Shown here in pieces: positions 34,026 through 55,276 of a stretch of DNA of 64,000 nucleotides. The DNA comes from Escherichia coli (GTDB taxonomy: Bacteria > Pseudomonadota > Gammaproteobacteria > Enterobacterales > Enterobacteriaceae). The notes under the pieces were generated by a model. The model did not search any database. It was not told the origin of the DNA and worked only from the letters and a program-made list of their open reading frames with translations. A program made the position numbers and the translations under genes. Position 1 is the stretch's first letter; the number at the start of each line of letters is the position of its first letter. The stretch lies in the NCBI RefSeq assembly GCF_030013595.1, contig NZ_CP122768.1; one strand, given 5' to 3'.

Positions 34026-34030
34026 AATAT

Positions 34031-37403: not shown

Positions 37404-37892
37404 ATGGCAGCACCAAAGGGCAACCGATTTTGGGAGGCCCGCAGTAGTCATGGGCGAAATCCTAAATTCGAATCGCCTGAGGCGCTGTGGGCTGCTTGTT
37501 GTGAATACTTCGAGTGGGTAGAAGCTAACCCGCTATGGGAGATGAAGGCGTTCTCGTATCAGGGTGAAGTGATACAAGAGCCTATCGCCAAGATGCGAGC
37601 GATGACCATTACCGGACTCACTCTGTTCATTGATGTGACGCTTGAAACATGGCGCACATATCGCCTGCGAGAAGATTTATCTGAAGTCGTTACGCGAGCA
37701 GAGCAGGTCATCTACGACCAGAAATTCTCTGGCGCAGCCGCTGACCTTCTCAACGCTAACATCATCGCCCGTGATTTGGGCCTCAAAGAGCAGTCGCAAG
37801 TTGAAGACGTGACACCTGATAAGGGAGATCGCGATAAGCGACGCTCTCGTATCAAGGAGCTATTCAACCGTGGAACTGGACGCGATTCTTGA
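37404..37892 (+). CDS. Terminase small subunit (P22 gp3-like)
   Basis: 162-aa [53 protein letters not shown]...; precedes the large terminase. Confidence 0.8.
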
Positions 37893-39369
37893 TAACCTGA
37901 GCGACGAAGAGCAAATCGAGTTGCTCGAGCTACTCGAAGAAGAAGAGAACTACCGGAACACACACCTGCTATATGAATTTACGCCATACAGCAAACAGCG
38001 TGAGTTCATCGACGCCGGGCATGACTATCCAGAGCGCTGTTTTATGGCTGGTAACCAGCTTGGTAAGTCATTTACTGGTGCTGCTGAAGTCGCGTTTCAC
38101 CTTACCGGGCGTTATCCGGGCACAAAAGGCTATCCGGCTGATGGTAAATATGGTGGGGAGTGGAAAGGTAAGCGTTTCTATGAGCCTGTTGTCTTCTGGA
38201 TTGGCGGCGAGACAAACGAGACTGTAACCAAAACGACTCAACGCATCCTGTGCGGTCGTATCGAAGAGAATGATGAGCCTGGCTACGGCTCCATACCGAA
38301 AGAGGACATCATTAGCTGGAAGAAGTCTCCTTTCTTTCCGAACCTTGTTGATCACCTTCTGGTTAAGCATCACACGGCTGATGGCGTTGAAGATGGCATT
38401 TCAATCTGCTACTTCAAGCCATACTCGCAAGGTCGTGCTCGCTGGCAGGGTGACACAATCCACGGAGTGTGGTTTGACGAAGAACCACCATACAGCATTT
38501 ATGGCGAAGGGCTTACCCGTACCAACAAATACGGGCAATTCTCAATCCTGACGTTTACCCCGCTGATGGGGATGTCTGACGTTGTTACCAAGTTCCTGAA
38601 GAATCCCAGCAAGTCGCAGAAAGTGGTCAACATGACCATCTATGACGCTGAGCACTATACCGACGAGCAGAAAGAGCAAATCATCGCATCCTATCCAGAG
38701 CATGAGAGAGAGGCTCGAGCTCGCGGTATTCCTACGATGGGTAGTGGTCGAATCTTCCAGATACCGGAAGAGACGATTAAGTGTCAGCCGTTCGAGTGTC
38801 CTGATCACTTCTACGTAATTGGCGGGATGGATTTCGGATGGGATCACCCTCAGGCGCAGGTTCAGCTTTGGTGGGATAAGGACGCAGACACAATCTACGT
38901 TTCGCGCGTGTGGAAGGCGAAAGAAAAGACAGCTGTTCAGGCGTGGGGAGCCGTTAAACCATGGGCGCATAAAGTGCCAACCGCATGGCCCCATGACGGA
39001 AACCAGCACGAGAAGGGCGGCGGTGAGCAGCTTAAAGGGCAGTACGCGGACGCTGGTTTTATGATGTTGCAGGAGCATGCGACATGGCCTGATGGCGGTA
39101 ACGCTGTGGAGCCTGGAATCACTGAATTGCGCGACATGATGCTTGATGGTCGCTTCAAAGTATTCAACACCTGTGAGCCATTCTTTGAGGAGTTCCGCCT
39201 CTATCACCGTGATGAAAACGGGAAGATCGTCAAGCTTAACGACGACGTGCTATCCGCCGTTCGCTATGCATACATGATGCGCCGCTTCGCAAAAATGATG
39301 CGCGACATCAAAAAACCAAAAGAGAAAAAGATACCAGCCCCAATCAGGCCCATCGCACGGAGAACTTAA
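37870..39369 (+). CDS. Terminase large subunit (P22 gp2-like)
   Basis: 499-aa ORF with ATPase and nuclease regions; overlaps the small subunit end. Confidence 0.85.
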
Positions 39370-41535
39370 ATGGCCGACGAAAACAGACTCAATTCCATTC
39401 TGTGTAAGTTTGACGCAGACTGGATGGCGAGCGATGAAGCCAGAACCGAGGCGACAAATGACCTGTATTTTAGCCGAGTGTCGCAATGGGATGACTGGCT
39501 ATCAAACTACACCACCCTGCAATATCGCGGACAATTCGATGTTGTCCGCCCGGTTGTCAGGAAGTTGGTCGCAGAGATGCGCCGGAACCCTATCGACGTT
39601 CTCTTCCGACCAAAAGACGGTGCTAATCCTGATGCTGCCGATGTGCTGATGGGGATGTATCGTACTGATATGCGCCATAACACGGCAAAAATTGCCGTTA
39701 ATGTTGGCGTTCGTGAGCAGATAGAGTCAGGCGTTGGTGCATGGCGTCTGGTCACGCAGTACGAAGACAACGACCCAACAAGCAACAATCAGGTAATCCG
39801 ACGCCTGCCAATCCATGAAGCCTGCTCACACGTCATATGGGACGCCAACAGCAAGCAGATGGATAAGAGCGACGCTAAGCACTGCACGGTGATTAACGCC
39901 TTGTCACGCAATGGCTGGAAAGAGTTCGCAGAGGATTACGGTATTGATCCTGACACCTTGCCATCTTTCCAGAATCCGAACGATACATGGCTGTTTCCGT
40001 GGGTATCGAATGATGTCGTCTACGTCGCTGAGTATTACGAGGTCGAAGAGAAGAAGGAGAAGGTCTTCATCTACCGCGACCCGCTGACAGGTGAGCCGGT
40101 CAGCTATTACCAGCAGGATATCAAAGACGTCATCGACGACCTGGCTAATCGTGGATTCATTAAGGTAGCAGAGCGCAAGGTGAAGCGTCGGCGTGTGTAT
40201 AAGTCGATCATCACCTGCACGCAGATACTGAAAGACCGAGAAAAGATAGCCGGAGAGCATATCCCAATCGTTCCAGTGTATGGAGAATGGTCATTCGCTG
40301 GTGACAAGGAGTGCTACGAAGGAGTGGTAAGGCTGACGAAAGACGGTCAACGCCTTCGTAACATGATCATGTCATTCAACGCCGATATTGTTGCTCGTTC
40401 ACCGAAGAAGAAACCGACCTTCTTCCCTGAGCAAATCGAAGGCTACGAATACATGTACGGTGGAAATGATGACTATCCGTACTATCTGCAGAACAGGACC
40501 GATGAAAACGGTAACGACCTGCCGATTGGTCCAATCTCCTACATGGAAAACCCTGAAGTGCCGCAAGCCAACGCTTATATGCTTGAGGCTGCCACCAACG
40601 CAGTGAAAGAGGTGGCTAGTCTTGGTGTGGATGCGCAGGCAGCAAACTCTCAGGTCGCTTTCGATACCGTCAATCAACTGAACATGCGGGCAGACCTTGA
40701 GACATACGTGTTTCAGGATAACCTGGCTACCGCAATGCGACGTGATGGCGAGATTTATGCCTCAATGGTCAACGATATTTATGACGTTCCTCGTCATGTA
40801 ACGCTGACACTTGAAGATGGAAGCGAGAAAGACGTTCAACTCTATGCGCAAGTTGTCGATTACCAGTCCGGCAATGTGGTCACACTCAACGACATTCGTG
40901 GTCGCTATGAGTGCTATACAGACGTTGGACCATCCTTCCAGAGTATGAAGGAACAGAACCGCGCAGAGATTCAGGAGTTACTCACCAAGGTTCCGCAAGG
41001 TACTCCAGAGTTCCAGATGCTGATGCTGCAATACTTCACGCTCCTTGACGGTAAAGGCGTCGAGATGATGCGAGAGTACGCGAACAAGCAACTGGTGATG
41101 ATGGGGCTGAAGAAACCAGAAACACCTGAAGAGATGGAGATGGTACAACAGGCACAACAACAGCCGCAGCAGCCATCAGCAGAGCAAATTCAGGCGCAGG
41201 GTATCCTTCTGCAAGGTCAGGCTGAATTGCTCAAGGCAGAGAACCAACAGGCACAGATTCAGGTTGAAGCCGCCAAGGTTGAAGCCCAAAACCAACTCAA
41301 CGCCGCGAAGATTGCAGAAATCTTCAACAATATGGACCTCGACAAGCAGGCAGAACTGCGTGAGTACCTCAAGCTAGTAGGTCAATTCCAGCAACAGCGC
41401 AGCAAAGATGCTCGTGCTAACGCTGAGCTGCTTCTTAAAGATGCAGACCAGAATCATTCACAACGCATGGATTTCGCGAATCTTATGCGTCAAGTTCAAA
41501 TCCCCTCCGGCGGAGTAGCCGAGACACCTCAATAA
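39370..41535 (+). CDS. Portal protein (P22 gp1-like)
   Basis: 721-aa ORF with Gln-rich C-terminal coiled-coil barrel region typical of P22-like portals. Confidence 0.85.
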
Positions 41536-41548
41536 GAGAGAGTTAATC

Positions 41549-42460
41549 ATGGACCAAACCACCGACATTCAGGCTTCTGAAGAATTAACCCTGCCCGGCA
41601 ATCATGCAGCGGCATCTGCTGATGGCTTAGTTGTCGATAATGCCAACGACAACGCAGGTCAGGAAGAAGGCTTTGAGATTGTCCTGAAAGACGATGAGAA
41701 ACCAAAACAAGACCCGGCAACTAATGCTGAATTTGCCCGTCGCCGCATCGAACGCAAACGCCAGCGTGAGCTTGAGCAGCAGATGGAAGCGGTTAAGCGT
41801 GGAGAGTTGCCGGAGCACCTGCGGGTGAACCCTGAGTTACCAAAACAACCAGACCCTAACGATTATCTTTCCGAAGATGCACTGGCTAAGTACGACTATG
41901 ACCAGAGCCGCGCACTGGCTGCCTTCCAGCAGGCAAACAGTGAATGGCAGATCAAGGCTATGGACGCACGAAGCCAGGCTGTCGCCGAGCAGGGCCGCAA
42001 AACTCAGGAGTTCACCCAGCAATCAGCGCAATACGTCGAGGCCGCCCGTAAGCACTACGATGCAGCGGAAAAGCTTAATATCCCTGACTATCAGGAGAAA
42101 GAGGATGCATTCATGCAACTGGTGCCGCCAGCAGTCGGTGCCGACATCATGCGCCTCTTCCCGGAGAAATCCGCCGCTCTCATGTATCACCTTGGTGCTA
42201 ATCCTGAGAAAACACGCCAGTTGCTGGCGATGGACGGGCAATCCGCGCTGATTGAACTCACTCGACTGTCAGAACGTTTAACTCTCAAGCCTCGAGCAAA
42301 GCCTGTTTCAGAAGCCCCGTTACCTGATGAACCCATTCAGGGACACGCTGTTGCTGCAAATATCTCTGCGATTGAAAAGCAGATGGAAGCGGCAGCAAAC
42401 AAAGGGGATGTAGAGACGTACCGCAAGCTCAAGGCGCAACTGAATAAAGGAATTCGATAA
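41549..42460 (+). CDS. Scaffolding protein (P22 gp8-like)
   Basis: 303-aa acidic alpha-helical protein between portal and coat. Confidence 0.75.
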
Positions 42461-43755
42461 TGGCATTAAATGAAGGTCAACTGGTCACGTATGCTCTGGA
42501 TGAAATCATCGAAACCGTCCAGAACCTGACGCCAATGGCGTCCAAAGTGACAAAATACACCCCTCCGGCAGAATCCATGCAGCGTTCAAGCAACACCGTG
42601 TGGATGCCTGTTGAGCAGGAAGCGCCAACCCAGACTGGCTGGGATTTAACTGGCAACGCAACCGGGATTCTGGAACTCTCCGTGAAATGCAACATGGGCG
42701 ATCCGGATAACGATTTCTTCGAGCTTCGTGCAGATGACCTGCGTGATGAGCGTTCTTACCGTCGCCGCATCCAGGCATCCGCCAAAAAACTGGCGAATAA
42801 CATTGAGTCAGCGATTGCCAAACAGGCAACTGAAATGGGCTCGCTTGTTGTTCACGATACCCGCGCAATTGGTCCATCTACTGGCCTTTCTGGCTGGGAT
42901 TTTGTGTCTGATGCAGAGCGCCTGATGTTCTCCCGTGAGCTAAACCGCGATATGGGCATCAGTTACTTCCTGAACCCTGACGATTACCGCAAAGCAGGCC
43001 GCAACCTGGTAGATGGTGACATCTTCGGGCGCGTTACTGAAGACGCGTATCACAACGGTACTATTCAGCGTCAGATTGCTGGCTTTGATGAAATTCTTCG
43101 CTCACCGAAACTTCCCGCAGTTACCAAGTCAACCGCTACTGGTGTAACTGTTTCTGGTGCGCAGAAGTTTAAGCCGCAGGCATACACCCTTGATACCGAT
43201 GGTAACAAAGAGAACGTCGATAACCGTGTTGCAACGGTGACCGTATCCTCCACCACCGGATTTAAGCGCGGCGACAAAATCAGCTTCACTGGTGTGAAAT
43301 TCCTGTCTCAGATGGCGAAGAACGTGCTGACTGATGATGCGACTTTCTCAATCACCCGTGTGATCGATGGTACTCACATCGAAATCACGCCGAAGCCGAT
43401 TGCGCTGGATGACGCGTCACTGACAAAAGAAGAGAAGGCTTACGCTAACGTAAACACCTCTCTTGCTGATACCACTCCGGTAAACGTTCTGAACGTGGCA
43501 ACAACCACCGCTAACGTGTTCTGGGCTGATGACTCAATCCGTCTGCTGTCTCAGCCGATCCCGGTAACCCATGAACTGTTTGCTGGCATGAAAACGTCTT
43601 CCTTCAGCATTCCTGGTATTGGTGTTAACGGCATCTTCGCAACGCAGGGGGATATCAACACTCTGTCTGGCAAGTGCCGTATTGCTGTGTGGTATTCAGC
43701 ATGTGCTGTACGACCAGAGGCAATTGGTGTTGGTCTGCCTAACCAGACCGCGTGA
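42460..43755 (+). CDS. Major coat protein (P22 gp5-like, HK97 fold)
   Basis: 431-aa [36 protein letters not shown]...; followed by a strong terminator. Confidence 0.85.
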
Positions 43756-43761
43756 TAACCA

Positions 43762-43790
43762 GAGGGAGCTTCGGCTCCCTTTTTTATCTG
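43762..43790 (+). terminator. Rho-independent terminator after the coat gene
   Basis: gggagc-ttcg-gctccc hairpin followed by TTTTTTAT. Confidence 0.7.
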
Positions 43791-43799
43791 GAGACAAGC

Positions 43800-44054
43800 A
43801 TGACACACATGATCTTTCGTCATGGAGACATGAAGAAGTGGAAAGGCGTTGGATACGACTTTGAAATCGTGAAAGCCGAAGAGCTTCAGGAATATCTGGA
43901 TGCTGGCTGGTTTGCACATCCCGATGACCTTCTGAAGGATGTTGCAGAGTCAGAGCCAGAGCTAGAACCAGAGTCAGAGCCAGAAGAAAAACAGCGTAAA
44001 AAGCCTGGTCGAAAACCTAAGGCGGTAGCAGATGAACCTGACAACGAAGGGTGA
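43800..44054 (+). CDS. Hypothetical acidic protein between coat and gp4
   Basis: ATG 43800 preceded by GGAGA SD; C-terminus [24 protein letters not shown]. Confidence 0.4.
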
Positions 44055-44532
44055 TTTAGTTCTTGCGGCATTACGTAAGCTCGGTGTGGCATCAAATGCC
44101 ACGTTAACCGATGTCGAACCGCAGTCTATGGAAGATGGCGTCAACGACCTTGAAATGATGATGGCTGAATGGCTTGGCGGTGATGCGTCACCTGGGATCA
44201 ACGTTGGCTACATTTTCGCTGATGCAGATGTCGCTCCAGATCCGGGCGATGAGCACGGCTTATCAAATAACGCTATAAATGCCGTCATTTTCAACCTTGC
44301 CTGCCGCATTGCTCCAGATTATGCGCTGGAAGCGCCAGCAAAACTTATAACCACTGCCAGATACGGGAAAGAGCGACTCGTCAAACCGTCTGCAATGGAC
44401 AGAGCAAAAGCCGCTAAATGTAAGTCCGGTTATCCAAACCGTATGCCTGTTGGTAGCGGTAACCAGTTGGCGAAGTGGAATGGTTGGAATTACTTCCACC
44501 GAAAGGAACCTTGCGATAACGGGAGCGAATAA
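44032..44532 (+). CDS. Head-completion / tail-adaptor protein (P22 gp4-like)
   Basis: 166 aa, first ORF after the coat module in P22-like order. Confidence 0.65.
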
Positions 44533-45951
44533 ATGCCGATTCAGCAACTTCCGCTTATGAAAGGTGTCGGCAAAGACTTTCGAAACGCCGACTATATCGA
44601 CTATCTGCCAGTGAATATGCTGGCTACACCCAAAGAAATCCTGAACAGCAGCGGATATCTTCGCTCATTCCCTGGCATTGCCAAACGCTCTGATGTGAAC
44701 GGTGTATCTCGCGGCGTCGAGTACAACATGGCGCAGAATGCTGTTTATCGTGTGTGTGGTGGCAAGCTGTACAAAGGAGAAAGTGAAGTCGGTGACGTCG
44801 CCGGAAGTGGTCGCGTATCAATGGCGCATGGTCGTACATCTCAGGCGATAGGTGTTAATGGTCAACTGGTCGAGTATCGCTATGATGGCACGATTAAAAC
44901 CGTCTCAAACTGGCCTACAGATAGTGGATTCACTCAGTATGAGCTAGGTTCGGTTCGTGACATTACGCGCTTACGTGGGCGTTATGCGTGGTCAAAAGAC
45001 GGCACTGATTCATGGTTTATCACTGATCTTGAAGACGAATCGCATCCTGACCGCTACAGCGCACAATATCGTGCCGAGTCTCAGCCGGACGGCATCATCG
45101 GCATCGGCACATGGAGAGACTTCATCGTCTGCTTTGGTTCATCGACGATTGAATATTTCTCCCTGACTGGTGCAACCACCGTTGGTGCTGCTTTGTATGT
45201 CGCACAGCCATCACTGATGGTGCAGAAAGGCATTGCCGGGACTTACTGCAAAACGCCGTTTGCTGACTCGTATGCGTTCATCAGCAATCCGGCAACAGGT
45301 GCGCCGTCTGTATACATCATCGGCTCCGGTCAGGTATCACCAATCGCCAGCGCGAGCATTGAGAAAATACTACGCTCCTACACTGCTGATGAACTGGCTG
45401 AAGGCGTGATGGAATCGCTGCGGTTTGATGCGCATGAGTTGCTGATTATCCATCTTCCGCGCCATGTTCTCGTATACGACGCATCTTCAAGCGCCAATGG
45501 TCCGCAATGGTGTGTATTGAAAACAGGCCTGTATGACGATGTGTACCGCGCTATCGACTTCATTTACGAAGGCAATCAGATAACGTGCGGCGATAAGCTG
45601 GAATCGGTGATCGGGAAATTGCAGTTCGATATCAGCAGCCAGTACGACAAGCAACAGGAACACCTGCTGTTTACTCCGTTGTTCAAAGCGGATAACGCCA
45701 GATGCTTTGATCTGGAGGTGGAATCATCGACTGGTGTTGCGCAGTATGCTGACCGCCTGTTCCTCTCTGCAACCACTGACGGCATCAATTACGGTCGTGA
45801 GCAGATGATTGAGCAGAATGAACCGTTCGTTTACGACAAACGCGTTTTGTGGAAGCGAGTTGGGCGCATCAGGAAAAATGTCGGCTTCAAATTGCGCGTT
45901 ATCACTAAGTCACCTGTCACTCTGTCAGGCTGCCAGATAAGGATTGAGTAA
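44533..45951 (+). CDS. Tail hub protein (P22 gp10-like)
   Basis: 472 aa; position between gp4-like and the needle. Confidence 0.65.
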
Positions 45952-46799
45952 TGGCTGATTCGAATCTCAATGTGCCGGTAATCATTCAGGCTACACGGCT
46001 CGACACATCAGTCCTTCCACGCAATATCTTCTCGCAGTCGTATCTGCTTTACGTTATCGCACAGGGTACTGATGTTGGTAACGTGGCGAACAAAGCCAAC
46101 GAGGCCGGACAGGGTGCTTATGACGCACAAGTCAGGAACGATGAGCAGGATGTGATTCTCGCTGACCATGAGCAGCGAATTTCTGCTGCGGAAGCAACGC
46201 TTGTTAATCATGAGGAGCGAATCAGCCAGGCAGAATCAACTCTTCAGGAACATGAAACGCGAATCGCTCAGAATGAAAGCGATATTGCGTCGCTTGATAC
46301 CAGAGTTCAGTCGCTGGAGTCGCAGGTTTCAGACCATGAATCGCGCATCGATTCTCTGGAGTATGCCACTACTCGCAAAAAGTCAGAGGTTGTTTACTCT
46401 GGCGTATCTGTAACCATTCCGACAGCGCCGACCAACCTTGTTAGCCTGCTGAAAACGCTCACGCCGTCATCAGGCTCGTTGGCACCATTCTTCGACACCG
46501 TTAACAACAAGATGATTGTGTTCAACGAGAACAAAACCTTGTTCTTCAAGCTGTCGATCGTCGGGACGTGGCCCAGCGGAACAGCCAACAGGTCAATGCA
46601 GCTAACCTTTTCCGGCTCTGTTCCTGACACACTGGTAAGCAGTCGCAACTCGGCTACAACAACCGATAACATCCTGTTAGCTACGTTCTTCAGCGTGGAT
46701 AAAGACGGCTTTCTTGCCACAAATGGCAGCACGTTAACCATCCAGTCAAATGGTGCGGCGTTTACTGCCACAACTATCAAAATCATTGCGGAGCAGTGA
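45951..46799 (+). CDS. Tail needle protein (P22 gp26-like) with extended C-terminal knob
   Basis: N-terminus [43 protein letters not shown] resembles P22 gp26; heptad-repeat coiled coil; longer C-terminus. Confidence 0.75.
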
Positions 46800-47266
46800 T
46801 GGAAATAAAGCTCATCGATAATCCGGTGAAGCTTGCAGAATTCCTCAACAACCCGGCAAACACGGGAAATATCGTAGATAGTGGAGATAAATACTACATC
46901 AAGCCTGATGCGGTATACCTCGGCATCTACGAAGGATTAGTGCTGGCTGGCGTTCATGAAGTGCGTAACTTCTGGCATAGCGTTGTTGAATGCCATGCGG
47001 TGTACGACCCCGGATTCCGTGGTGAATATGCACTGCAAGGGCATCGATTATTCTGCAAGTGGCTTCTCGAAAACTCACCATTCCTTAACAGCATTACCAT
47101 GGTTCCTGACACCACGAAATACGGACGGGCAATTATCCGTTTGCTTGGCGCTACCCGTGTTGGTCACCTTGATGATGCGTACATGAGTAACGGAAAACCG
47201 GTTGGAATCACCCTCTATCAATTACCTCGTTCAAAATATGAGGAGCTATTAAATGTTAGTACTTAG
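46796..47266 (+). CDS. Head assembly protein (P22 gp14-like)
   Basis: 156 aa, positional. Confidence 0.5.
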
Positions 47267-47933
47267 CGAAAGCTTCAAGAATAAATTGCTTCCCATGAAT
47301 GGGTATATGAAAGGCGGCAGCGACTCCGGATCTAAAGCCCAGGCACGCGCAACTGAAAAGGGCATCGAACTGCAGCGTGAAATGTGGCAAACGAACATGC
47401 AGAACCTTGCACCGTTCACGCCACTCGCTAAGCAGTACGTATCACAGTTGCAGAATCTTTCCTCTCTTCAGGGGCAAGGTCAGGCGCTTAACCAGTATTA
47501 CAACTCTCAGCAGTATAAAGACCTTGCAGGGCAGGCACGCTATCAGAGTCTGGCAGCAGCAGAGGCAACGGGTGGATTAGGCTCTACAGCAACAGGAAAC
47601 CAGTTAGCAGCAATCGCACCTACACTCGGTCAAAACTGGCTGTCAGGTCAGATGAACAACTACAACAATCTGGCAAACATTGGCCTTGGTGCTCTTACAG
47701 GTCAGGCAAACGCTGGGCAGAACTACGCTAACAACGTCAGCCAATTGTATCAACAGCAGGCGGCAGCATCTGCGGCGAATGCTAACCGACCATCAGGACT
47801 GCAATCAGCCTTGGGAGGTGCCATGAGCGGTGCGGCATCAGGGGCGATGATTGGCTCTGTGGTGCCAGGAATAGGTACAGCTGTTGGCGCTATTGGTGGC
47901 GGTATTATCGGTGGTCTTGGATCATTGTTTTAA
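47253..47933 (+). CDS. Ejection protein (P22 gp7-like)
   Basis: 226 aa, Gln/Ala/Gly-rich with glycine-zipper C-terminus; positional. Confidence 0.55.
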   Translation: MLVLSESFKNKLLPMNGYMKGGSDSGSKAQARATEKGIELQREMWQTNMQNLAPFTPLAKQYVSQLQNLSSLQGQGQALNQYYNSQQYKDLAGQARYQSLAAAEATGGLGSTATGNQLAAIAPTLGQNWLSGQMNNYNNLANIGLGALTGQANAGQNYANNVSQLYQQQAAASAANANRPSGLQSALGGAMSGAASGAMIGSVVPGIGTAVGAIGGGIIGGLGSLF

Positions 47934-47942
47934 GGTGGGAAT

Positions 47943-49325
47943 ATGGCTAGTTGGCAACAAGGAATCAACTCAGGCGGCTTTCTTGCTGGTATCGGTGGGC
48001 AAAACTCAAATGCGCCAAAGGCAAGTGATGTAAGTGAGGCGTTGGCCTATATTCGCCAGAACAACGAAATGGAGCGCTCAGGTCGCAATAACATCGGCCT
48101 TCAGGCGTTGCAGGGGCTTGGTAGTGTCGCTCAAACATATCAAGCCGCAAAGCAACAGGAATTCCAAAAAGAATATGCGGCAGCCATCCAGTCAGGTGAT
48201 CGGCAGCAGGTGCGAGATCTGATGACCAAATATCCTGGTCAATTAGAGAAGATTCAGTCTGGTATGAAGTGGGCAGACGAAGACCAGCGCAATTCTATCG
48301 GCACCTTAGCGGCTGGCGCACGCCTTGCGTCATCGTCTCCAGAAGCAATGCAATCATGGCTGCAAAACAACGCCAAGGAACTGGCGCGCGTCGGTGTTGA
48401 CCCTAACAGCGTTGCTCAGATGTATCAGCAAAACCCTTCAGGATTTGGTGAGTTTGTTGATCACCTTGGAATGGCTGCTCTTGGTCCGATTGATTACTTC
48501 AATGTTCAGGACAAGATGGCTGGTCGTGAAATTGACCGAGGCAAACTGGCAGAGACAATCCGCAGCAATCAGGCTGGCGAGGCGCTAACAGCACGAGGCC
48601 AGAACATCACGATGCGCGGTCAGGACTTATCTGCTTCTACTGCGCGACGAGGTCAGGATTTGGCAATGCAGCGAGCGTCAACAAGACGAATCGCTGGGAA
48701 TGATGAGCGTACAGTTCAGTTATCAGATGGCAGAACTGTAACGGTAGGCGGGAAGCTTCACGGCGCTGGGGCTAATGCGTTCTACGAAGGCATCGACAAC
48801 GAGGGGAATATGGTTCGCGTCCCTGCTGGCTCTATTGCCGCTCCGGCTACATCGGCAGCAAGCGCGCAGAATTACGCAATGAAGAAAGATCTTGATGCAA
48901 TTTCTGGTGCATCAATTGACGATCTTGGCTTCATGACTGGCATTACAGGCTCTTCAGGTTCTCCTGCTCTTGGTGCAGATATTCGTAGCCGTGCATCTGG
49001 TGGTGATCAGAGGAAACTATACAACGCTGCACAGCGAATCCAAGGAAAGATGCAGAATCAGGGCATTGCAGCAGCCAGAGACATGGGGGCATCCGGTATC
49101 AACACCGTTGCAGAAGCAAAGATGTATTTTCAAGGTATGCCACAGGTTGATTTCTCAAGCCCTGAAGCACTGCAACAATCAATGCGCGACATTCAGCAAT
49201 ATACCGACAATTACAACCAGCAATATAACGTTAATGTTGGTAAATCTCAGCGGCAGCAATCTCAACCTGCACAGGTATCACAGCCAGCAGCCAGCAGTAA
49301 CTTTTCTTCACTATGGGGTGATTAA
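47943..49325 (+). CDS. Ejection protein (P22 gp20-like)
   Basis: 460 aa, positional. Confidence 0.55.
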
Positions 49326-51430
49326 TGGCTAAAGCATGGAAAGATGTTATCGCTTCTCCACAGTATCAGGCGTTAGCACCAGAACAAAAAGCGCAGGCTC
49401 AGGAGCAATACTTCAATGAAGTCGTGGCCCCGCAAGCCGGAGAAAGTGTAGAGCAGGCTAAGCAGGCTTTTTATGCTGCCTATCCACTACCATCAACGAA
49501 TGAAATAGACCGATACCAATCAGCAACTCAAAATATTCAACATACATCATCTGATAATTCTCTTGCGTCAGGGTATGCAAAGTTAGCTACTCAGCAAAGA
49601 GAGGGGCTTGAGCGTTCAGCAGAACAGGGAGCCAGTCTTGGGGCTGCGATGCGCGATGCTATAACAGGCGAAAGCCGAATGACTCCAGAGATGGAGAGAC
49701 TGCAAAATGTCGACCTTGCCCCAGAGTTAACCTCACTCAGCATGGATGCTCTAAAAGCTCGATGGTCTCAACTTTTCGGCTCTGACGCATCTCAGGAAAA
49801 GATTCTTCAGAGCATGGGAGCGAAATTAAGGCAGGATGAGAAGGGGAACACTATCGTTTCCCTGCCATCCGGTGATTATGCTCTGAACAAGCCGGGTTTA
49901 TCGCCGCAAGACGTGGCATCGTTTCTGGCTAATGCGCTGGCGTTTACACCAGCGGGCAGGGCTGGAACGGTGCTTGGTGCCATAGGAAAATCAGCAGCTA
50001 CAGATTTAGCACTACAGGGAGCCACCAGCCTTGCTGGTGGAGAAGATATTGATCCGTTACAAACGGTAATTTCTGCTGGCATTGGTGGTATTGGTAAGGG
50101 GCTGGAAAATACAGCGAGTGCGGTTTCGAGGGCTGTTCGTGGTGATATGTCGCCTGAAGCAAAGGCTGCTGTCGACTTTGCATCGGAAAGAAATCTGCCG
50201 TTAATGACCAGTGACATGCTGAAAGATAAAACCTTTATGCAGAGTCAGGCTCAGACATTAGGCGAAAGAGTTCCTTTTTTTGGAACCGGTAAGAATCGGC
50301 TGAATCAACAACAAGCACGAGAAAATTTAGTCAGAACATTTAGCGATGGTCTGGGTGGTATTTCTGATAAACAGCTTTATGAATCTGCGACTAAAGGGCA
50401 ACAAAAATTCATTGAGGCAGCAGGAAAGCGATATAACCGCATAATTGACGCTATGGGGGATACCCCTGTCGATCTCTCAAACACGGTAAAAGCTATCGAC
50501 AATCAGATTGCCGTGTTAAGCCGCCCGGGCAAATCTCAGGATAGAGCCGCGGTAAAAGTCTTGCAGCAATTTAAAGACGATATCACCAGCGGGCCAAATG
50601 ACCTGCGTCTGGCGAGGGAAAACAGAACCGATCTTCGAAAGCGATTTATGGCGTCATCTGACACTGTTGATAAAGATACGCTCCAGAAAGCCAGCGATAT
50701 TATCTACAAGGCATATACGGCGGATATGAAAAAAGCCGTAGCCAAAAATCTTGGAGCAGACGAAGCCATTAATATGGCAAGGGTTGATCGCTCATGGTCT
50801 AAATTCAATGACATGATGGGAAGAACGCGCGTTCAAAAGGCAATAGCCAGCGGCAAGGCCACGCCTGAGGATGTAACAAAACTCGTTTTTAGCCAAAGCC
50901 CATCAGAACGTTCTCAGCTTTACAGGCTTCTGGATGACAATGGTAGGCAAAACGCACGAGCAGCCATAGTTCAGAATGCTGTAGATAAGGCGACTGATCC
51001 GTCTGGAAATATCAGTGTTGAGAAGTTTATTAATGCGTTACACCGGAACAGGAAGCAATCAGCAACTTTCTTTAAAGGCGTACATGGAAAGGAACTGGAC
51101 GGCGTTATTAAATACCTCAACGATACAAGACACGCGGCAAAAGCGAACGTTCAAAACTTAAATGGTCAGCAGCTTTATGGATTGTTAGTTGGTGGTGGCA
51201 TCATAAACGCAGCAGTATTAGCGGGGATGCTAAAAACGGCTGCGTTTGTTGTTCCTGCTGCTGGTGCCGTAGGCGGAGCAGCGAAGGCATACGAAAGCCC
51301 TGTTATACGAAATGCCTTGTTACGTCTGGCAAATACGCCAAAAGGTAGCACAGCATATGACAGAGCGATCAGTACGGTCACACAATCGCTCACCAGAGTC
51401 GCACAGGCATCACAAAAAGAAGCTCAATAA
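49325..51430 (+). CDS. Ejection protein (P22 gp16-like)
   Basis: 701 aa with hydrophobic C-terminal segments; last gene of the ejection-protein block. Confidence 0.6.
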   Translation: MAKAWKDVIASPQYQALAPEQKAQAQEQYFNEVVAPQAGESVEQAKQAFYAAYPLPSTNEIDRYQSATQNIQHTSSDNSLASGYAKLATQQREGLERSAEQGASLGAAMRDAITGESRMTPEMERLQNVDLAPELTSLSMDALKARWSQLFGSDASQEKILQSMGAKLRQDEKGNTIVSLPSGDYALNKPGLSPQDVASFLANALAFTPAGRAGTVLGAIGKSAATDLALQGATSLAGGEDIDPLQTVISAGIGGIGKGLENTASAVSRAVRGDMSPEAKAAVDFASERNLPLMTSDMLKDKTFMQSQAQTLGERVPFFGTGKNRLNQQQARENLVRTFSDGLGGISDKQLYESATKGQQKFIEAAGKRYNRIIDAMGDTPVDLSNTVKAIDNQIAVLSRPGKSQDRAAVKVLQQFKDDITSGPNDLRLARENRTDLRKRFMASSDTVDKDTLQKASDIIYKAYTADMKKAVAKNLGADEAINMARVDRSWSKFNDMMGRTRVQKAIASGKATPEDVTKLVFSQSPSERSQLYRLLDDNGRQNARAAIVQNAVDKATDPSGNISVEKFINALHRNRKQSATFFKGVHGKELDGVIKYLNDTRHAAKANVQNLNGQQLYGLLVGGGIINAAVLAGMLKTAAFVVPAAGAVGGAAKAYESPVIRNALLRLANTPKGSTAYDRAISTVTQSLTRVAQASQKEAQ

Positions 51431-51448
51431 CTGGTTAGCCATGGATGG

Positions 51449-51637
51449 TTATTTCCTTAGCACATGAAACAATGTTTGCTTTAATTCCACCCATACAATT
51501 ATGACCACTATAGACAGACAAAAGAAACTGAATGCATTGGCATCACGATCGAAACCTTCTCCGGCACTAAATCCGTAAAAGGTCATAAAAAATATAAAAA
51601 TTGCGCACTTTGCAACGTTTACAAATTTTTTCTTCAC
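51449..51637 (-). CDS. Small hydrophobic membrane protein (62 aa, two predicted TM helices), antisense to the tail operon
   Basis: GTG start 5 nt after a perfect AAGGAGG SD on the minus strand; strongly hydrophobic translation. Confidence 0.5.
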   Translation of the reverse strand: MKKKFVNVAKCAIFIFFMTFYGFSAGEGFDRDANAFSFFCLSIVVIIVWVELKQTLFHVLRK

Positions 51638-52011
51638 ACCAACCTCCTTAGTTTTGCTCAGGATACCAGATGATACTTTATTGGTGGAGTGGTGTGTGAA
51701 AACGTGTCAACGACAAACCATCCACAACTTGGACGAATGATTTAGCAAAAAGTGCTATTTTTGGTGTTTAGTGTCATAGAAAAGTGAATAGCTCACTTTT
51801 CAACATTGCATGAAACTTGCAGGAAATGTGACATTACCTTATAGGTAATTTCGGCGAAAATGCAGTAAATGTGAAACGTAATGGTTTAAACATGTCGCTA
51901 AAGTGGTTGTAAGTTAGCCTCCGAAGGATTGCTGATAGCTTTGTTATAGTATTAAATGACATTTGACATAGTTGGATACTTAGCTGTGGCTATCAAGATG
52001 GAGGTGTGTTC

Positions 52012-52455
52012 ATGCTTACTTGTTTTGATGTCGCCGACTACTTCCTGTCGCGGTGTGACGAGGATAGCGGTGACACAATCTCTAATTTAAAATTACAAAA
52101 GCTTGTTTACTATGCTCAGGGGTTTTCATTGGCGTTGCTTGGTGAGCCTCTTTTTCAGAATAAGATGGAAGCTTGGATGCATGGCCCTGTTGTCCCTGAG
52201 CTTTATCGCCGTTATAAACAATATGGTAATGGAGCTATCCCTTCTCCAGAGTCTTTTGATGCTGAAAAATTCAGCGAAGAACAGTTAGAGCTATTAGAAG
52301 AAGTCTGGGATGTTTTTGGGCAATTTTCTGCCTGGAAACTGAGGAACATGACACACGAAGAGTCACCATGGAGATCAAACTATATTGAGGGTGTTGGTGG
52401 TTCTGAAATTAGCTCTAAGGAGATGGCAGAGTACTTTGCAACTCGGATTAACTAA
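52012..52455 (+). CDS. Panacea/DUF4065-like (SocA/GepA-type) protein, putative antitoxin-type component
   Basis: MLTCFDVADYFLSRC...NLKLQKLVYYAQGFSLALLGEPLF...AWMHGPVVPELY matches the recalled DUF4065 signature; GAGGTG SD upstream. Confidence 0.55.
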   Translation: MLTCFDVADYFLSRCDEDSGDTISNLKLQKLVYYAQGFSLALLGEPLFQNKMEAWMHGPVVPELYRRYKQYGNGAIPSPESFDAEKFSEEQLELLEEVWDVFGQFSAWKLRNMTHEESPWRSNYIEGVGGSEISSKEMAEYFATRIN

Positions 52456-52459
52456 CGAG

Positions 52460-52879
52460 ATGGCAAGAAAATCTAAAAGGATTATCCCCCCTGCTGAATC
52501 TACAGGTAAGTTAAAGTTAGGGCCGCAGTCAGGGGGGAATTCAGATCAAAAGAAACCGAAATTTTCATTCTGTTACATCCAAAGCTCTCACTGCATAACG
52601 AAATGCCAAAAAGATGAGAAAGCTGGCTTAGCTGATAAATTATACAGATTAAGTCAACTAACATGGGCAGAGATTAAGCAGCAAGGTAGGCATAAGCTTG
52701 GATTTGAGAAGATTGCAAGGGGTGCAATTAAAGCTGGTATCCCCGGTCATATAACGGAAGACGTAGATCATTTCTTGGCTTTTAGATTTGATGATTTGAA
52801 AGCCATGGTTGGTTATCGTCTTGGATCGACATTTTTTGTTATATGGCTTGATAGAGAGTTCAACCTATACAAGCACTAA
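52460..52879 (+). CDS. Unknown partner protein (139 aa), translationally coupled to the Panacea-like gene; candidate toxin/effector
   Basis: ATG 4 bp after the upstream stop; basic N-terminus, Cys/His cluster, C-terminal ...GYRLGSTFFVIWLDREFNLYKH; strong terminator follows. Confidence 0.5.
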   Translation: MARKSKRIIPPAESTGKLKLGPQSGGNSDQKKPKFSFCYIQSSHCITKCQKDEKAGLADKLYRLSQLTWAEIKQQGRHKLGFEKIARGAIKAGIPGHITEDVDHFLAFRFDDLKAMVGYRLGSTFFVIWLDREFNLYKH

Positions 52880-52881
52880 TA

Positions 52882-52908
52882 AAACCCACCGTCAGGTGGG
52901 TTTTTTTG
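52882..52908 (+). terminator. Rho-independent terminator ending the two-gene operon
   Basis: cccacc-gtca-ggtggg hairpin followed by TTTTTTT. Confidence 0.75.
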
Positions 52909-52923
52909 TTGGAGATAAAATGG

Positions 52924-53127
52924 TTAACCAAATCGATCCTTAAAGCGTCTATCGCTGTTGCGTCTCTCCATTTTACTGTTGCAGTACGGACAAAGATGCT
53001 GTTTCTTTCCATCGATAGTCCATGTGAAGTACTTTTTCTTAAATCCAGCACCACAGATATCGCAACTTCTTGGTTTAAACATACTGGCTATGAAGATAAG
53101 AACAACAAATCCTATGATCCATTCCAT
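52924..53127 (-). CDS. Small membrane-anchored zinc-ribbon protein (67 aa)
   Basis: N-terminal TM helix MEWIIGFVVLIFIASMF followed by CDICG...CPYC zinc-ribbon pattern. Confidence 0.35.
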   Translation of the reverse strand: MEWIIGFVVLIFIASMFKPRSCDICGAGFKKKYFTWTIDGKKQHLCPYCNSKMERRNSDRRFKDRFG

Positions 53128-53268
53128 ATCATGTACCTGTTTTAACTTTATTTTTTGATTTTTAGGGATTAATCAGAAACTTTATCTTGCGATTAAGCAA
53201 AGCTACTAGCTAACAAAAGAGTGCGTATACAATCAATCGTTTCACATCAACCTCAACAAGGAGAAATC

Positions 53269-53454
53269 ATGACCATAGAAGAACGCCTGAACAACATTGA
53301 GTTGAACCAAACCCTGCTTGACCAGCGACTTTCAGATCTTGAGCTTAAAGATCTGGATGCGCAAATATCAGAAGCAGAAGCCAAGCTCTCCAGCTTAAAC
53401 CACCGCAAGAAGCAAATCCGCAACAGAATTACTCAGGGACGCGGAAGCCGTTGA
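53269..53454 (+). CDS. Small coiled-coil protein (61 aa)
   Basis: ATG preceded by AAGGAG SD at ideal spacing; heptad-like MTIEERLNNIELNQTLLDQRLSDLELKDLDAQISEAEAKL. Confidence 0.4.
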   Translation: MTIEERLNNIELNQTLLDQRLSDLELKDLDAQISEAEAKLSSLNHRKKQIRNRITQGRGSR

Positions 53455-53463
53455 AATCCTAGT

Positions 53464-53781
53464 CTATTTTTTCTCAGAGCTCATATTGTAATAGGTGGTA
53501 TAAATAGAGATTGATTTCTGACATGCTTCAAGAAATTGCTGCGGAGTCATCCCGAGCCTTGCTTGCTCTGTAGTAAGGAATCTCTGTAAGAATTCATTCC
53601 CACCTGGCATGTTTGTAGATTCTTGGAATATTGCCATTTGTTTGATTGCACCACACATACCAGCCATTTTAGAAGCTATCATGAGGCCTTGTATTTCATC
53701 AAAACTGCTATCGTCTGATTTTGTTTCTGCGTTAGCTATGCTCGAGAGACACAGGAGCAATAGGATAGCGATACGTTTCAT
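53464..53781 (-). CDS. Secreted/periplasmic protein (105 aa, cleavable signal peptide), co-transcribed with the mnt-like gene
   Basis: MKRIAILLLLCLSSIANA signal sequence; start overlaps the mnt-like stop (ATGA). Confidence 0.5.
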   Translation of the reverse strand: MKRIAILLLLCLSSIANAETKSDDSSFDEIQGLMIASKMAGMCGAIKQMAIFQESTNMPGGNEFLQRFLTTEQARLGMTPQQFLEACQKSISIYTTYYNMSSEKK

Positions 53782-54029
53782 TTTTCACCATTGCCATGCA
53801 TACATTTTAACTTCTCAACATCATGCTCAAGCTCTATCAGTCGCGATGCTATAGTTGCAAGATCTAGTGCTTGAATGTGTTTGTTTTTTTCGGTCCATGC
53901 TTCAAGTGCTGCGACCATCTCAGCATTTAATGAACGAGAATTAGCCTCAGCCAGTTCAATAAGACGTTCCTTTATCTCTACAGGAAGCCTCAGATTCACT
54001 TGAGGGTTTTTGTACTTACGATCAGACAT
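53778..54029 (-). CDS. Mnt-like ribbon-helix-helix repressor (Arc/MetJ family)
   Basis: 83 aa; N-terminal ...NLRLPVEIKERLIELAEANSRSLNAEMVAALEAW RHH fold; divergent from the arc/ant pair as in P22 immI. Confidence 0.7.
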   Translation of the reverse strand: MSDRKYKNPQVNLRLPVEIKERLIELAEANSRSLNAEMVAALEAWTEKNKHIQALDLATIASRLIELEHDVEKLKCMHGNGEK

Positions 54030-54104
54030 CGGCGCATCCTGAATAATTTTTTACCACAGGATATGTAGGTATCTATTGACTATCAATGCGTACCTAAATA
54101 CTAT

Positions 54105-54121
54105 GTATGCGTACCACATAC
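54105..54121. promoter_or_regulatory. Candidate operator: imperfect palindrome GTATGCGTACCACATAC with ATGCGTACC repeated 21 bp upstream
   Basis: In the divergent mnt-like/arc-like intergenic region, just upstream of the arc-like start. Confidence 0.4.
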
Positions 54122-54133
54122 AAAGGAGCAAAA

Positions 54134-54280
54134 ATGAAAGTTAAGACATTAAGGATGCCAGAATGGCTGGAAAAGGCTTTGGAGCAGTCCGCGAAAAAGG
54201 ATGATCGGTCGTTCAGTAATGAGGTATTGAGGAGACTAAAGGAGTCAGTAGCTAAGGATGGAATTGTTTGTCCAGAATGA
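54134..54280 (+). CDS. Arc-like ribbon-helix-helix repressor (48 aa; below ORF-track cutoff)
   Basis: Manual translation MKVKTLRMPEWLEKALEQSAKKDDRSFSNEVLRRLKESVAKDGIVCPE; GGAG SD upstream; precedes the ant-like gene. Confidence 0.55.
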   Translation: MKVKTLRMPEWLEKALEQSAKKDDRSFSNEVLRRLKESVAKDGIVCPE

Positions 54281-54346
54281 GTAAAGCCCAAGCTATTGCG
54301 AGTAGCTCGGGCTTAAATCGCCAGTAAATTTTGAGGAAAAACTGAC

Positions 54347-55276
54347 ATGAAAAGTATAGCAACAGCAGTATCTACTATCAACGTGCCATTCCACGGCGCA
54401 GAGCTTTATGTCGTCAATCACAACGGTGAGCCGTACACCCCAATGAAACCTATCGTTGAAGGTATGGGTATGGATTGGGCTTCACAGTTTACGAAAATAA
54501 AGCAACGGTTTAAAACCTCCATTGTGAAAATCACAATGCAGCTTCCTGGTGATGAACAGTGCCGTGAGATTATTTGTTTGGCACTTCGCAAACTTGCTGG
54601 CTGGCTGCAAACCATCAGTCCAAACAAAGTCCGCCCTGAAATCCGCGACAAGGTAATCCAGTATCAGGAAGAGTGTGACGATGTGCTATACGAGTACTGG
54701 ACTAAAGGCCATGTAGTTAACCCACGCAAAGCTAAAAAGGCGTTGCCGGGTAAAATCACCACTGAACAGCAGGAAGCCATTAAACAACTCGTCATGAGTC
54801 GCGGTCAGTCTCTGCCAAAAGAAAAACAGGCTAAGGCGATGATCACCATGTGGTCGTCACTGAAATCCCATTTTGGATGTTCGTACAAAGAAATCAGTGA
54901 GGAGCAGTTTACCGAAGCACTGTCACTTGCTGCTCGAGTTCCACTTGAAGGTGAGTTCATTGGCAAACAAGAGAAGAAAACCAACGAGCTTTCTGCAAAA
55001 GAAGCAAACAGCCTTGTATGGCTCTGGGATTATGCTAACCGTTCACAGGCATTATTCCGCGAATTGTATCCGGCGCTAAAACAAATTCAATCGAACTATT
55101 CCGGCAGATGCTACGACTACGGTCATGAATTCTCGTATGTTATCGGAATGGCGAGAGACGTTTTAATCAATCACACACGAGATGTTGATATTAATGAGCC
55201 AGACGGACCAACGAATCTTTCCGCATGGATGAGACTTAAGAATAAAGAATTACCTCCTTCAGTACATAACTACTGA
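54347..55276 (+). CDS. Antirepressor (Ant-like)
   Basis: 309-aa ORF following the arc-like gene, in the position of P22 ant. Confidence 0.6.

What the first reader, a model, noticed from the sequence alone, without database searches (positions are those of the whole stretch)
54086..54280. Arc-like gene missed by the ORF track, and candidate operators in the mnt/arc divergent region
A 48-aa RHH ORF (MKVKTLRMPEWLEKALEQSAKKDDRSFSNEVLRRLKESVAKDGIVCPE) precedes the ant-like gene. Upstream are two ATGCGTACC repeats 21 bp apart and an imperfect palindrome GTATGCGTACCACATAC. This reconstructs a complete immI-like circuit (mnt / arc / ant).
Basis: seen in the sequence. Interest (0 to 1): 0.3.

Follow-up and report, generated by a model that had tools for sequence, protein, structure and literature searches.

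The report
P22-type antirepressor control module (immI)
The small gene is real and encodes an Arc-family repressor that, with a divergent Mnt-like repressor, conserved operator boxes and an antisense RNA, forms an E. coli prophage version of the classic phage P22 switch controlling an antirepressor; it is ordinary in kind and already annotated in RefSeq.

Summary
A 48-codon ORF (54134-54280, + strand) has a good ribosome-binding site. It matches Pfam Arc above the curated cut-off and is 31% identical to P22 Arc. In 24 distinct relatives it is under clear purifying selection: variable columns by codon position are 22/17/44.

The two ATGCGTACC copies lie at 54086-94 and 54107-15. The 17-bp imperfect palindrome lies at 54105-21. 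Alone they are only mildly unusual, but they sit in a 57-bp core that stays 81-100% identical where neighbouring synonymous sites are near saturation.

The layout is mnt-like (53778-54029, -), arc-like, a sar-like antisense RNA (54280-54346, -) with its promoter inside ant, then ant (58% identical to P22 Ant) and the tailspike gene. This is the P22 immI layout.

It differs from P22 in its operators and promoters. Three same-orientation boxes (T-r-s-r-T-A-y-C) are spaced 21 bp apart, and the two promoters stand back to back and overlap only at their -35 hexamers. An arc-less lineage keeps the boxes, which suggests the Mnt-like protein reads them; this is an inference.

The gene is not unknown. 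RefSeq calls it "Arc family DNA-binding protein" (WP_021528598.1). It is a new member of a known kind, of low to moderate interest.

The parts
53778..54029 (-). mnt-like gene, 83 aa: an N-terminal RHH domain with beta-strand PQVNLRLP, then a helical C-terminal tail
   Evidence: Pfam Arc at 3.1e-10. 42% identity to the P22 Mnt N-terminus. PDB 1mnt at 4.5e-5. phrog_795, the family that holds P22 mnt. RefSeq WP_001283828.1.
54058..54086 (-). Candidate Pmnt promoter: -35 TTGATA (54086..54081), 17-bp spacer, -10 TATCCT (54063..54058)
   Evidence: Promoter scan, 9/12. The TA...T positions of the -10 (54063, 54062, 54058) are invariant in 21-22 of 22 diverse relatives. Diverged relatives carry TACTAT here.
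54076..54104 (+). Candidate Pant promoter: -35 TTGACT (54076-81), 17-bp spacer, -10 TACTAT (54099-104). The start site is inferred near 54111.
   Evidence: Promoter scan. Both hexamers are essentially invariant in 22 relatives. It sits in the same place relative to arc as the annotated P22 Pant.
54066..54073 (+). Box iii, TAGGTATC. It is a degenerate copy in this window and reads TGCGTACC, TACATACC or TGCATACC in diverged relatives. It lies in the Pmnt spacer.
   Evidence: 21-nt tandem family D1. Column counts. 21/21 spacing in 54 of 93 unique upstream regions.
54087..54094 (+). It lies in the Pant spacer and abuts the Pmnt -35.
   Evidence: Positions 54089-54092 are invariant in 22 of 22 relatives.
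54108..54115 (+). It lies at about +1 of Pant.
   Evidence: Invariant except for G/A at 54111.
54101..54125 (.). Its centre at 54113 falls on box ii.
   Evidence: Inverted repeat I4, 8/9 complementary. The arms TGTAT and ATACA are conserved in 20-22 of 22 relatives. The ATACAA element is duplicated 10 bp apart in loci with other Arc types.
54134..54280 (+). arc-like gene, 48 aa, with Shine-Dalgarno AAGGAG at 54123-28
   Evidence: RefSeq WP_021528598.1 'Arc family DNA-binding protein' has the same coordinates.
54280..54346 (-). sar-like antisense RNA covering the arc-ant spacer and the ant ribosome-binding site
   Evidence: Rfam RF00262 at 29.3 bits, E = 0.004, below the gathering score of 43. 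Hits at the same position in relatives score 30-85 bits, seven of them above gathering. It folds into two hairpins like P22 sar, z = -5.9.
54353..54381 (-). Candidate Psar promoter inside the first codons of ant: TTGATA, 17 bp, TG-TATACT
   Evidence: Best promoter match in the region, 10/12 with an extended -10. Its offset of +7..+35 from the ant ATG is the same as annotated P22 Psar, 15097-15125 against an ATG at 15091.
54347..55276 (+). ant antirepressor gene, 309 aa, followed by a terminator at 55294-55313
   Evidence: Pfam P22_AR_N at 7e-45 and P22_AR_C at 5e-30. 58% identity to P22 Ant. Terminator scan.

Best explanation
This is the secondary-immunity (immI-type) module of a P22-like prophage. 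The window is 100% identical to E. coli UMNF18.

Two back-to-back sigma-70 promoters share an overlapping pair of -35 hexamers.
- Pant reads rightward into the 48-aa Arc-family repressor gene and the antirepressor gene ant.
- Pmnt reads leftward into an Mnt-like repressor gene and a small secreted-protein gene.

Proposed working, by analogy with P22:
- In the lysogen, the Mnt-like protein keeps Pant shut so that no antirepressor is made.
- After infection, Pant fires briefly, and the Arc-like protein then shuts it down.
- A sar-like antisense RNA, made from a promoter inside ant, pairs with the ant ribosome-binding site and blocks its translation.

The DNA targets lie in a 57-bp conserved core (54066-54122). 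It contains three same-orientation boxes T-r-s-r-T-A-y-C spaced 21 bp apart. One is in the Pmnt spacer, one is in the Pant spacer, and one is at Pant +1. The third box sits inside a TGTAT...ATACA palindrome.

My best guess, which is an inference, is that the boxes are the Mnt-like protein's sites and the palindrome arms are the Arc-like protein's site.

Shown here: the genes, their families, the selection acting on them, the conserved boxes and promoter hexamers, and the sar homology. Inferred: who binds what, the transcription start sites and the regulatory logic.
For: Gene identity:
- Pfam, PHROG and PDB matches.
- Identity to P22 proteins: Arc 31%, Mnt 42%, Ant 58%.
- The layout matches the annotated P22 immI feature for feature, including the sar and Psar offsets.

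The arc-like ORF is a real gene:
- In 24 distinct 48-codon versions the variable columns by codon position are 22/17/44.
- The N-terminal MKVKTLRMP is invariant although Arg7 uses all six codons and Leu6 uses five.
- Neither alternative forward frame is open in any of the 24 versions.

Operator and promoter core:
- The core 54066-54122 is 81-100% identical where arc third-codon positions are 38-54% identical and flanks are 19-38%.
- Of 93 unique regions upstream of Mnt-like genes, 54 have three boxes at 21/21 bp spacing. About 0.06 boxes per region per strand would be expected by chance.

Boxes assigned to the Mnt-like protein:
- One lineage has no arc and no ant but keeps the Mnt-like gene. 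It carries TAGGTATC-aa-TGCGTACC-aag-TAGGTATC at 10-11 bp spacing across its own promoter.
- The boxes persist unchanged in loci whose Arc beta-strand is of another type.

sar:
- Hits at the same position in relatives reach 84.6 bits.
- The fold matches P22 sar.
Against: There is no binding or transcription data, and the start sites are only predicted.

Assigning boxes to Mnt-like and palindrome arms to Arc-like is weak:
- The arc-less evidence comes from essentially one closely related lineage.
- The Arc-like and Mnt-like genes were never found apart otherwise.
- All Arc beta-strand types share a (T/S)-x-R pattern, so they could all read the same boxes.

Boxes 21 bp apart are too far for the dimer-dimer contacts used by P22 Arc, and no intermediate half-sites were evident.

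The window's sar hit is below Rfam's gathering score (29.3 against 43).

The AlphaFold monomer model of the Arc-like protein is of low confidence (pLDDT 63). It shows only the two helices, as expected for a fold that forms its beta-sheet only in the dimer.
Confidence: 0.85

Rival explanations
1. The circuit is the same, but the three T-r-s-r-T-A-y-C boxes are the Arc-like protein's operator. As in P22, Arc would then repress both Pant and Pmnt through the boxes in both promoter spacers. The Mnt-like protein would bind the 17-25-bp palindrome at Pant +1, as P22 Mnt binds a 17-bp palindrome at the Pant start.
For: The positions parallel P22, where O-arc lies in the Pant spacer and O-mnt at the start site. 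The Arc-like N-terminus is invariant wherever the boxes occur. All Arc beta-strand types found with the core share (T/S)-x-R. The palindrome arms are conserved.
Against: The arc-less lineage keeps three boxes next to the Mnt-like gene alone. A 48-aa RHH dimer has no obvious way to cooperate across 21 bp.
Confidence: 0.3
2. The repeats are not operators. The conserved core reflects only two strong promoters, and the ATGCGTACC repeat is incidental or a by-product of a 21-bp duplication.
For: The 9-mer repeat alone is only p of about 0.02, and the palindrome alone is not significant. Much of the core consists of -35 and -10 hexamers.
Against: Promoter spacers and the +1..+12 region are not normally sequence-constrained, yet 54087-54094 and 54105-54122 are almost invariant across relatives with near-saturated synonymous sites. 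The same 8-mer class recurs three times in phase, and it recurs again at different spacing in a different promoter context.
Confidence: 0.07
3. The 48-codon ORF is a decaying remnant or a chance ORF, and ant is controlled without an Arc. This was proposed for CUS-3 and HS-1 type regions by Villafane et al. 2008 (PMC2629481).
For: The gene is absent from the CUS-3 GenBank annotation. [quoted passage not shown] Some PGAP annotations label the small ORF only 'hypothetical protein'.
Against: The codon-position pattern is 22/17/44 and conserved residues show saturated synonymous change. The ORF matches Pfam Arc above the cut-off. CUS-3 itself carries an intact 46-aa version at L001:1846-1985, behind the same core and ribosome-binding site.
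Confidence: 0.02

Closest known systems
Bacteriophage P22 immI region (mnt - Pmnt/Pant - arc - sar - ant), as annotated in NC_002371
   Same: The gene order, strands and genomic position (between the ejection-protein genes and the tailspike gene) are the same. Both have two RHH repressors facing each other across about 100 bp. Ant is 58% identical. sar RNA and its promoter sit at identical offsets from the ant start codon. A terminator follows ant.
   Different: Arc is only 31% and the Mnt N-terminus 42% identical, and the DNA-reading strands differ: KVKTLRMP against P22 Arc PQFNLRWP, and PQVNLRLP against P22 Mnt PHFNFRMP. The P22 operator sequences are absent. Instead of two different palindromic operators there are three same-orientation 8-bp boxes 21 bp apart plus one palindrome. 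The P22 promoters occupy the same 30 bp on opposite strands, whereas here only the -35 hexamers overlap and the predicted start sites are about 60 bp apart.
Salmonella phage SEN22 (NC_028696) genes SEN22_18/19/20 and E. coli phage CUS-3 ant region
   Same: These belong to the same family. SEN22 matches at 84% DNA identity and has an annotated 48-aa 'Arc-like repressor'. CUS-3 has the same Mnt-like gene, core and ant.
   Different: CUS-3 carries a 46-aa Arc variant, 60% identical after the first 10 residues, plus a 67-aa Cys-rich ORF. Both are unannotated in its record, and its sar is much closer to P22's (84.6 bits). In SEN22 ant is truncated by a transposon.
Other ribbon-helix-helix repressors that read short repeated boxes, such as MetJ met-boxes, omega heptads and AmrZ (comparison from general knowledge; only AmrZ appeared in a search here)
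   Same: These are small RHH dimers that read short sequence boxes repeated in phase. AmrZ is the second-best solved relative of the Arc-like profile (1.4e-3).
   Different: In those systems the boxes are adjacent, 7-8 bp apart. Here they are two helical turns apart in arc-containing loci and one turn apart in the arc-less lineage.

Membership tests
Arc/Mnt ribbon-helix-helix repressors (Pfam PF03869) | Sequence match to the Arc family profile above the curated threshold | tested here: met
   The Arc-like protein scores 25.1 bits against a cut-off of 20.4. The Mnt-like protein scores 40.2 bits. PHROG 228. Profile against PDB: pArc at 4.7e-5 and Arc at 0.035.
Arc/Mnt ribbon-helix-helix repressors (Pfam PF03869) | Strand-helix-helix topology with an N-terminal DNA-reading strand | tested here: inconclusive
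   The AlphaFold2 monomer model has an extended stretch at residues 1-9 and helices at 10-22 and 26-41, which is the right order, but mean pLDDT is only 63. The strand forms only in the dimer, which was not modelled.
Arc/Mnt ribbon-helix-helix repressors (Pfam PF03869) | Sequence-specific binding to an operator at its own promoter | not testable with these tools
   Only indirect evidence: the invariant N-terminal strand co-occurs with an invariant core.
P22-type immI module | Divergent mnt and arc-ant transcription units between the ejection-protein genes and the tailspike gene | tested here: met
   The same arrangement was found in 80 of 80 viral loci recovered with the Arc-like protein.
P22-type immI module | Antirepressor of the P22 Ant family downstream of arc | tested here: met
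   P22_AR_N and P22_AR_C domains, and 58% identity to P22 Ant. In relatives the downstream gene varies among several antirepressor types.
P22-type immI module | sar antisense RNA across the arc-ant spacer, with its promoter inside ant | tested here: met
   Rfam sar hit at E = 0.004, below gathering. It is supported by hits at the same position in relatives of up to 84.6 bits, the same two-hairpin fold, and a 10/12 promoter at the P22 offset.
P22-type immI module | P22 operator sequences and fully overlapping Pant/Pmnt promoters | tested here: not met
   The P22 O-arc and O-mnt sequences have no counterpart here. The promoters overlap only at their -35 hexamers. This makes the window a diverged member, not a copy.
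P22-type immI module | Mnt maintains and Arc shuts off repression of ant; Ant inactivates the prophage repressor | not testable with these tools
   Inferred by homology only.

The most novel reading that the evidence does not exclude
The conserved unit may be a portable 150-bp regulatory cassette. It would consist of the DNA-reading N-termini of two RHH repressors plus a fixed three-box, two-helical-turn operator array and back-to-back promoters. The helical bodies of both repressors, and the antirepressor cargo, would be swapped freely around this cassette. The Mnt-like protein would read direct repeats at either one-turn or two-turn spacing. That operator logic is not described for P22 Arc or Mnt. 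It would also overturn the published view that CUS-3/HS-1-type regions control ant without an Arc.
Probability: 0.3. Interest if true: 0.4.

Novelty: new member of a known kind. Interest (0 to 1): 0.25.

Why it matters
P22 immI, Arc and Mnt are textbook systems for protein-DNA recognition and antisense control. This E. coli/Salmonella prophage family keeps the circuit but uses different DNA-reading residues and a different operator layout. It is therefore a ready-made natural variant for studying how RHH specificity and promoter architecture co-evolve.

In practice the finding does three things:
- It confirms that short Arc-type genes are lost by length-filtered ORF calling.
- It shows that some published records and statements, such as the CUS-3 annotation and 'no arc gene in CUS-3/HS-1', are incomplete.
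- It gives exact coordinates for binding and reporter experiments.

It does not reveal a new kind of system.

Tried and rejected
- **Separating the two proteins' sites by natural variation.** I scanned viral contigs for the Mnt-like strand and for the Arc-like strand. The Arc-like type was never found without the Mnt-like gene. Only one arc-less lineage was informative.
- **A P22-like fully overlapping Pmnt.** I looked by eye for a -35 near 54104-09 and a -10 near 54076-86. No acceptable hexamers were found, so I rejected this in favour of the conserved back-to-back arrangement.
- **P22 Arc 'TAGA' half-sites for the Mnt-like protein.** Its Gln-Asn-Arg strand pattern matches P22 Arc. One TCTA at 54072-75 is present, but it is not conserved in relatives, so I rejected this.
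- **The palindrome at 54104-54122 as a leftward terminator**. The T-tract is poor and no transcript is expected there, so I consider it unlikely.
- **The palindrome as a 5'-UTR hairpin of arc mRNA.** I rejected this because the left arm lies upstream of the predicted start site.
- **AlphaFold2 monomer model.** Its confidence was too low to justify a fold search.
- **Literature search.** I found no experimental work on this variant's operators in the held library.

Full report
**1. What is in the sequence**

- A 48-codon ORF runs from ATG 54134 to TGA 54278-54280 and translates to MKVKTLRMPEWLEKALEQSAKKDDRSFSNEVLRRLKESVAKDGIVCPE.
- AAGGAG (54123-54128) lies 5 nt upstream of the ATG.
- The mechanical ORF list gives 54107..54280, 57 aa from an upstream ATG. 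That is under the tool's 60-aa default, which is the likely reason a length-filtered ORF track did not show it.
- ATGCGTACC occurs at 54086-94 and 54107-15, 21 bp apart.
- GTATGCGTACCACATAC lies at 54105-21, with 6 of 8 symmetric pairs. The repeat finder extends it to 9-nt arms, 54101-09 and 54117-25, that are 8/9 complementary.
- A repeat of 9 bp or more in this 104-bp spacer arose in 108 of 5000 dinucleotide shuffles.
- The palindrome alone is not significant, at 2187 of 5000 shuffles.

**2. Where the window comes from, and existing annotation**

Window 53750-54400 is 100% identical to the E. coli UMNF18 chromosome, and close copies occur in 225 of 5426 complete E. coli genomes.

RefSeq already annotates the ORF at the same coordinates as WP_021528598.1, "Arc family DNA-binding protein". 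Its neighbours there are another Arc-family protein on the left, "phage antirepressor Ant", and "phage tailspike protein". Salmonella phage SEN22 annotates its copy as "Arc-like repressor". The gene is therefore not unknown.

**3. Family assignments**

| Protein | Evidence |
|---|---|
| 48-aa Arc-like | Pfam Arc PF03869 at 25.1 bits against a cut-off of 20.4; PHROG 228 "Arc-like repressor"; 31% identical to P22 Arc over 39 residues. A 14-sequence profile hits single-chain Arc at 4.7e-5, AmrZ at 1.4e-3 and Arc at 0.035. |
| 83-aa Mnt-like (53778-54029, -) | Pfam Arc at 3e-10; 42% identical to the P22 Mnt N-terminus; best solved relative is Mnt, 1mnt, at 4.5e-5. |
| Ant (54347-55276) | Both P22 antirepressor domains; 58% identical to P22 Ant. 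|

An AlphaFold2 monomer model of the Arc-like protein was of low confidence (pLDDT 63). It showed an extended N-terminus and two helices, which is compatible with the RHH fold but does not prove it.

**4. The ORF is a gene under selection**

A scan of viral contigs returned 80 loci encoding relatives, from 100% down to 58% identity.

- Among 24 distinct 48-codon versions, variable columns by codon position are 22/17/44.
- Neither alternative forward frame is open in any of the 24 versions.
- The N-terminal MKVKTLRMP is invariant even though Arg7 uses all six codons and Leu6 uses five.
- Every one of the 80 loci has a divergent Mnt-like gene carrying PQVNLR(L/M)P.
- The loci inspected have an antirepressor-type gene downstream, though of several different kinds.
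- Both repressors keep their DNA-reading N-termini while the rest of each protein diverges. One example is a 46-aa Arc variant that matches only in its first 10 residues but sits behind an identical upstream region.

**5. The intergenic core**

I aligned 43 unique upstream regions and made column counts on 22 diverse ones.

- A nearly invariant block spans about 54062-54122.
- In pairwise comparisons, 54066-54122 is 81-100% identical. Arc third-codon positions are 38-54% identical, the mnt-side spacer 19-38%, and the 11 bp between the core and the ATG 18-73%.
- This is purifying selection on the core, not recent shared ancestry of a larger segment.

The core contains two promoters:

- Pant is TTGACT (54076-81), 17 bp, TACTAT (54099-104).
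- A leftward promoter is TTGATA (54086..81), 17 bp, TATCCT (54063..58).
- The key TA...T positions of the leftward -10 are invariant, and diverged relatives read TACTAT there.
- The promoters therefore stand back to back and overlap only at their -35 hexamers. In P22 the two annotated promoters occupy the same 30 bp.

**6. Boxes**

| Box | Coordinates | Sequence in window | Position |
|---|---|---|---|
| iii | 54066-73 | TAGGTATC (degenerate here; TGCGTACC in many relatives) | Pmnt spacer |
| i | 54087-94 | TGCGTACC | Pant spacer |
| ii | 54108-15 | TGCGTACC | Pant +1 |

- Box ii is nested in the palindrome, whose arms TGTAT and ATACA are themselves conserved.
- Among 93 unique regions upstream of Mnt-like genes, 54 have three boxes at 21/21 bp. 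About 0.06 boxes per region per strand would be expected by chance.
- TGCGTACC occurs only four times in the 64-kb window, and two of those are here.

**7. Who binds what**

This cannot be settled by computation.

- A scan for the Mnt-like strand found a lineage with no arc and no ant.
- Its Mnt-like gene is preceded by TAGGTATC-aa-TGCGTACC-aag-TAGGTATC, at 10-11 bp spacing, across a TTGATA-17-TAGAAT promoter.
- A LexA-box-like palindrome and hypervariable cargo genes follow.

Caveats:

- The arc-less evidence is essentially one lineage.
- The same core also occurs with other Arc strand types (PSTVRFP, PVSVRMP, PSSVRFP), but these share (T/S)-x-R with KVKTLRMP and so could have the same specificity.
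- Two of those types have an extra ATACAA element 10 bp downstream of the first. That is a weak hint that ATACA is the Arc-side element.
- The Arc-like type was never found without the Mnt-like gene.

I rate "boxes = Mnt-like, arms = Arc-like" at roughly 0.55-0.6 and the reverse at about 0.3.

**8. sar**

- Rfam's sar model matches 54280-54346 on the minus strand, at 29.3 bits and E = 0.004. This is below the gathering score of 43.
- The same position in relatives scores 30-85 bits. Seven are above gathering, and CUS-3 reaches 84.6.
- The RNA folds into a 5' hairpin plus a terminator hairpin, as P22 sar does, with z = -5.9.
- The best promoter match in the region, TTGATA-17-TATACT with TG at 10/12, lies at 54381..54353. 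That is +7..+35 of ant, the same offset as the annotated P22 Psar.

**9. Comparison with the literature**

- Villafane et al. 2008 (PMC2629481) describe this variable "ant moron". They state that CUS-3 and HS-1 apparently lack arc genes and may control ant differently.
- CUS-3 in fact carries an intact 46-aa member of this Arc-like family at L001:1846-1985, behind the same core. It lies inside a stretch annotated only as the "bsq2 boundary sequence".
- I found no experimental study of this variant's operators in the held library.

**10. Verdict**

This is a diverged member of the P22 immI kind. It is already annotated at the gene level, and its uncharacterised operator and promoter layout differs from P22's. 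Interest is low to moderate.

Noticed in passing
window 54280-54346 (-), promoter 54353-54381 (-): A sar-like antisense RNA and its promoter lie at exactly the P22 offsets. The Rfam hit is below gathering in the window but well above it in relatives.
   Followed up: yes
L001 (CUS-3, CP000711) 1846-1985 and 1982-2185: CUS-3 has an unannotated 46-aa Arc-like ORF and a 67-aa Cys-rich ORF inside the 'bsq2 boundary sequence'. A 2008 paper states that CUS-3/HS-1 apparently lack arc.
   Followed up: partly
window 54036-54041 and 54057-54062: The inverted repeat ATCCTG / CAGGAT links the mnt Shine-Dalgarno region with the Pmnt -10. Relatives keep complementarity with different sequences: CCATG/CATGG in L030 and L031, ACTC/GAGT in L034. 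It might hide the mnt ribosome-binding site in read-through transcripts. It remains unexplained.
   Followed up: partly
L131, L134, L153, L159, L161, L166, L175-L177, L181, L182, L197, L200: One lineage has an Mnt-like gene, three boxes at 10-11 bp spacing and a LexA-box-like palindrome (TTGTATATGTATACAG). Completely different cargo genes begin immediately after the palindrome, so this looks like a hot spot for variable genes.
   Followed up: partly
L109, L110, L135, L142, L160 (upstream of their arc genes): Loci with other Arc strand types carry a tandem duplication of the ATACAA element, 10 bp apart, between box ii and the ribosome-binding site.
   Followed up: no
window 52006-52455 (+) and 52460-52879 (+): A Panacea (SocA-like antitoxin) domain gene is followed 4 nt later by a 139-aa ORF. 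That ORF matches phrog_8366 (unknown function, 7e-66, full length) and is not annotated in UMNF18 RefSeq. This may be a toxin-antitoxin pair inside the ant region.
   Followed up: partly
window 52924-53127 (-): A 67-aa ORF has an N-terminal hydrophobic segment and two CxxC pairs, with weak zinc-ribbon hits. A similar ORF is present in L043. It is not annotated in UMNF18 RefSeq.
   Followed up: no
window 53464-53781 (-): A 105-aa protein with a signal-peptide-like N-terminus has a start codon that overlaps the mnt stop (ATGA), so it is probably co-transcribed with mnt. It matches phrog_19844 (unknown function). Relatives carry different genes in this slot.
   Followed up: partly
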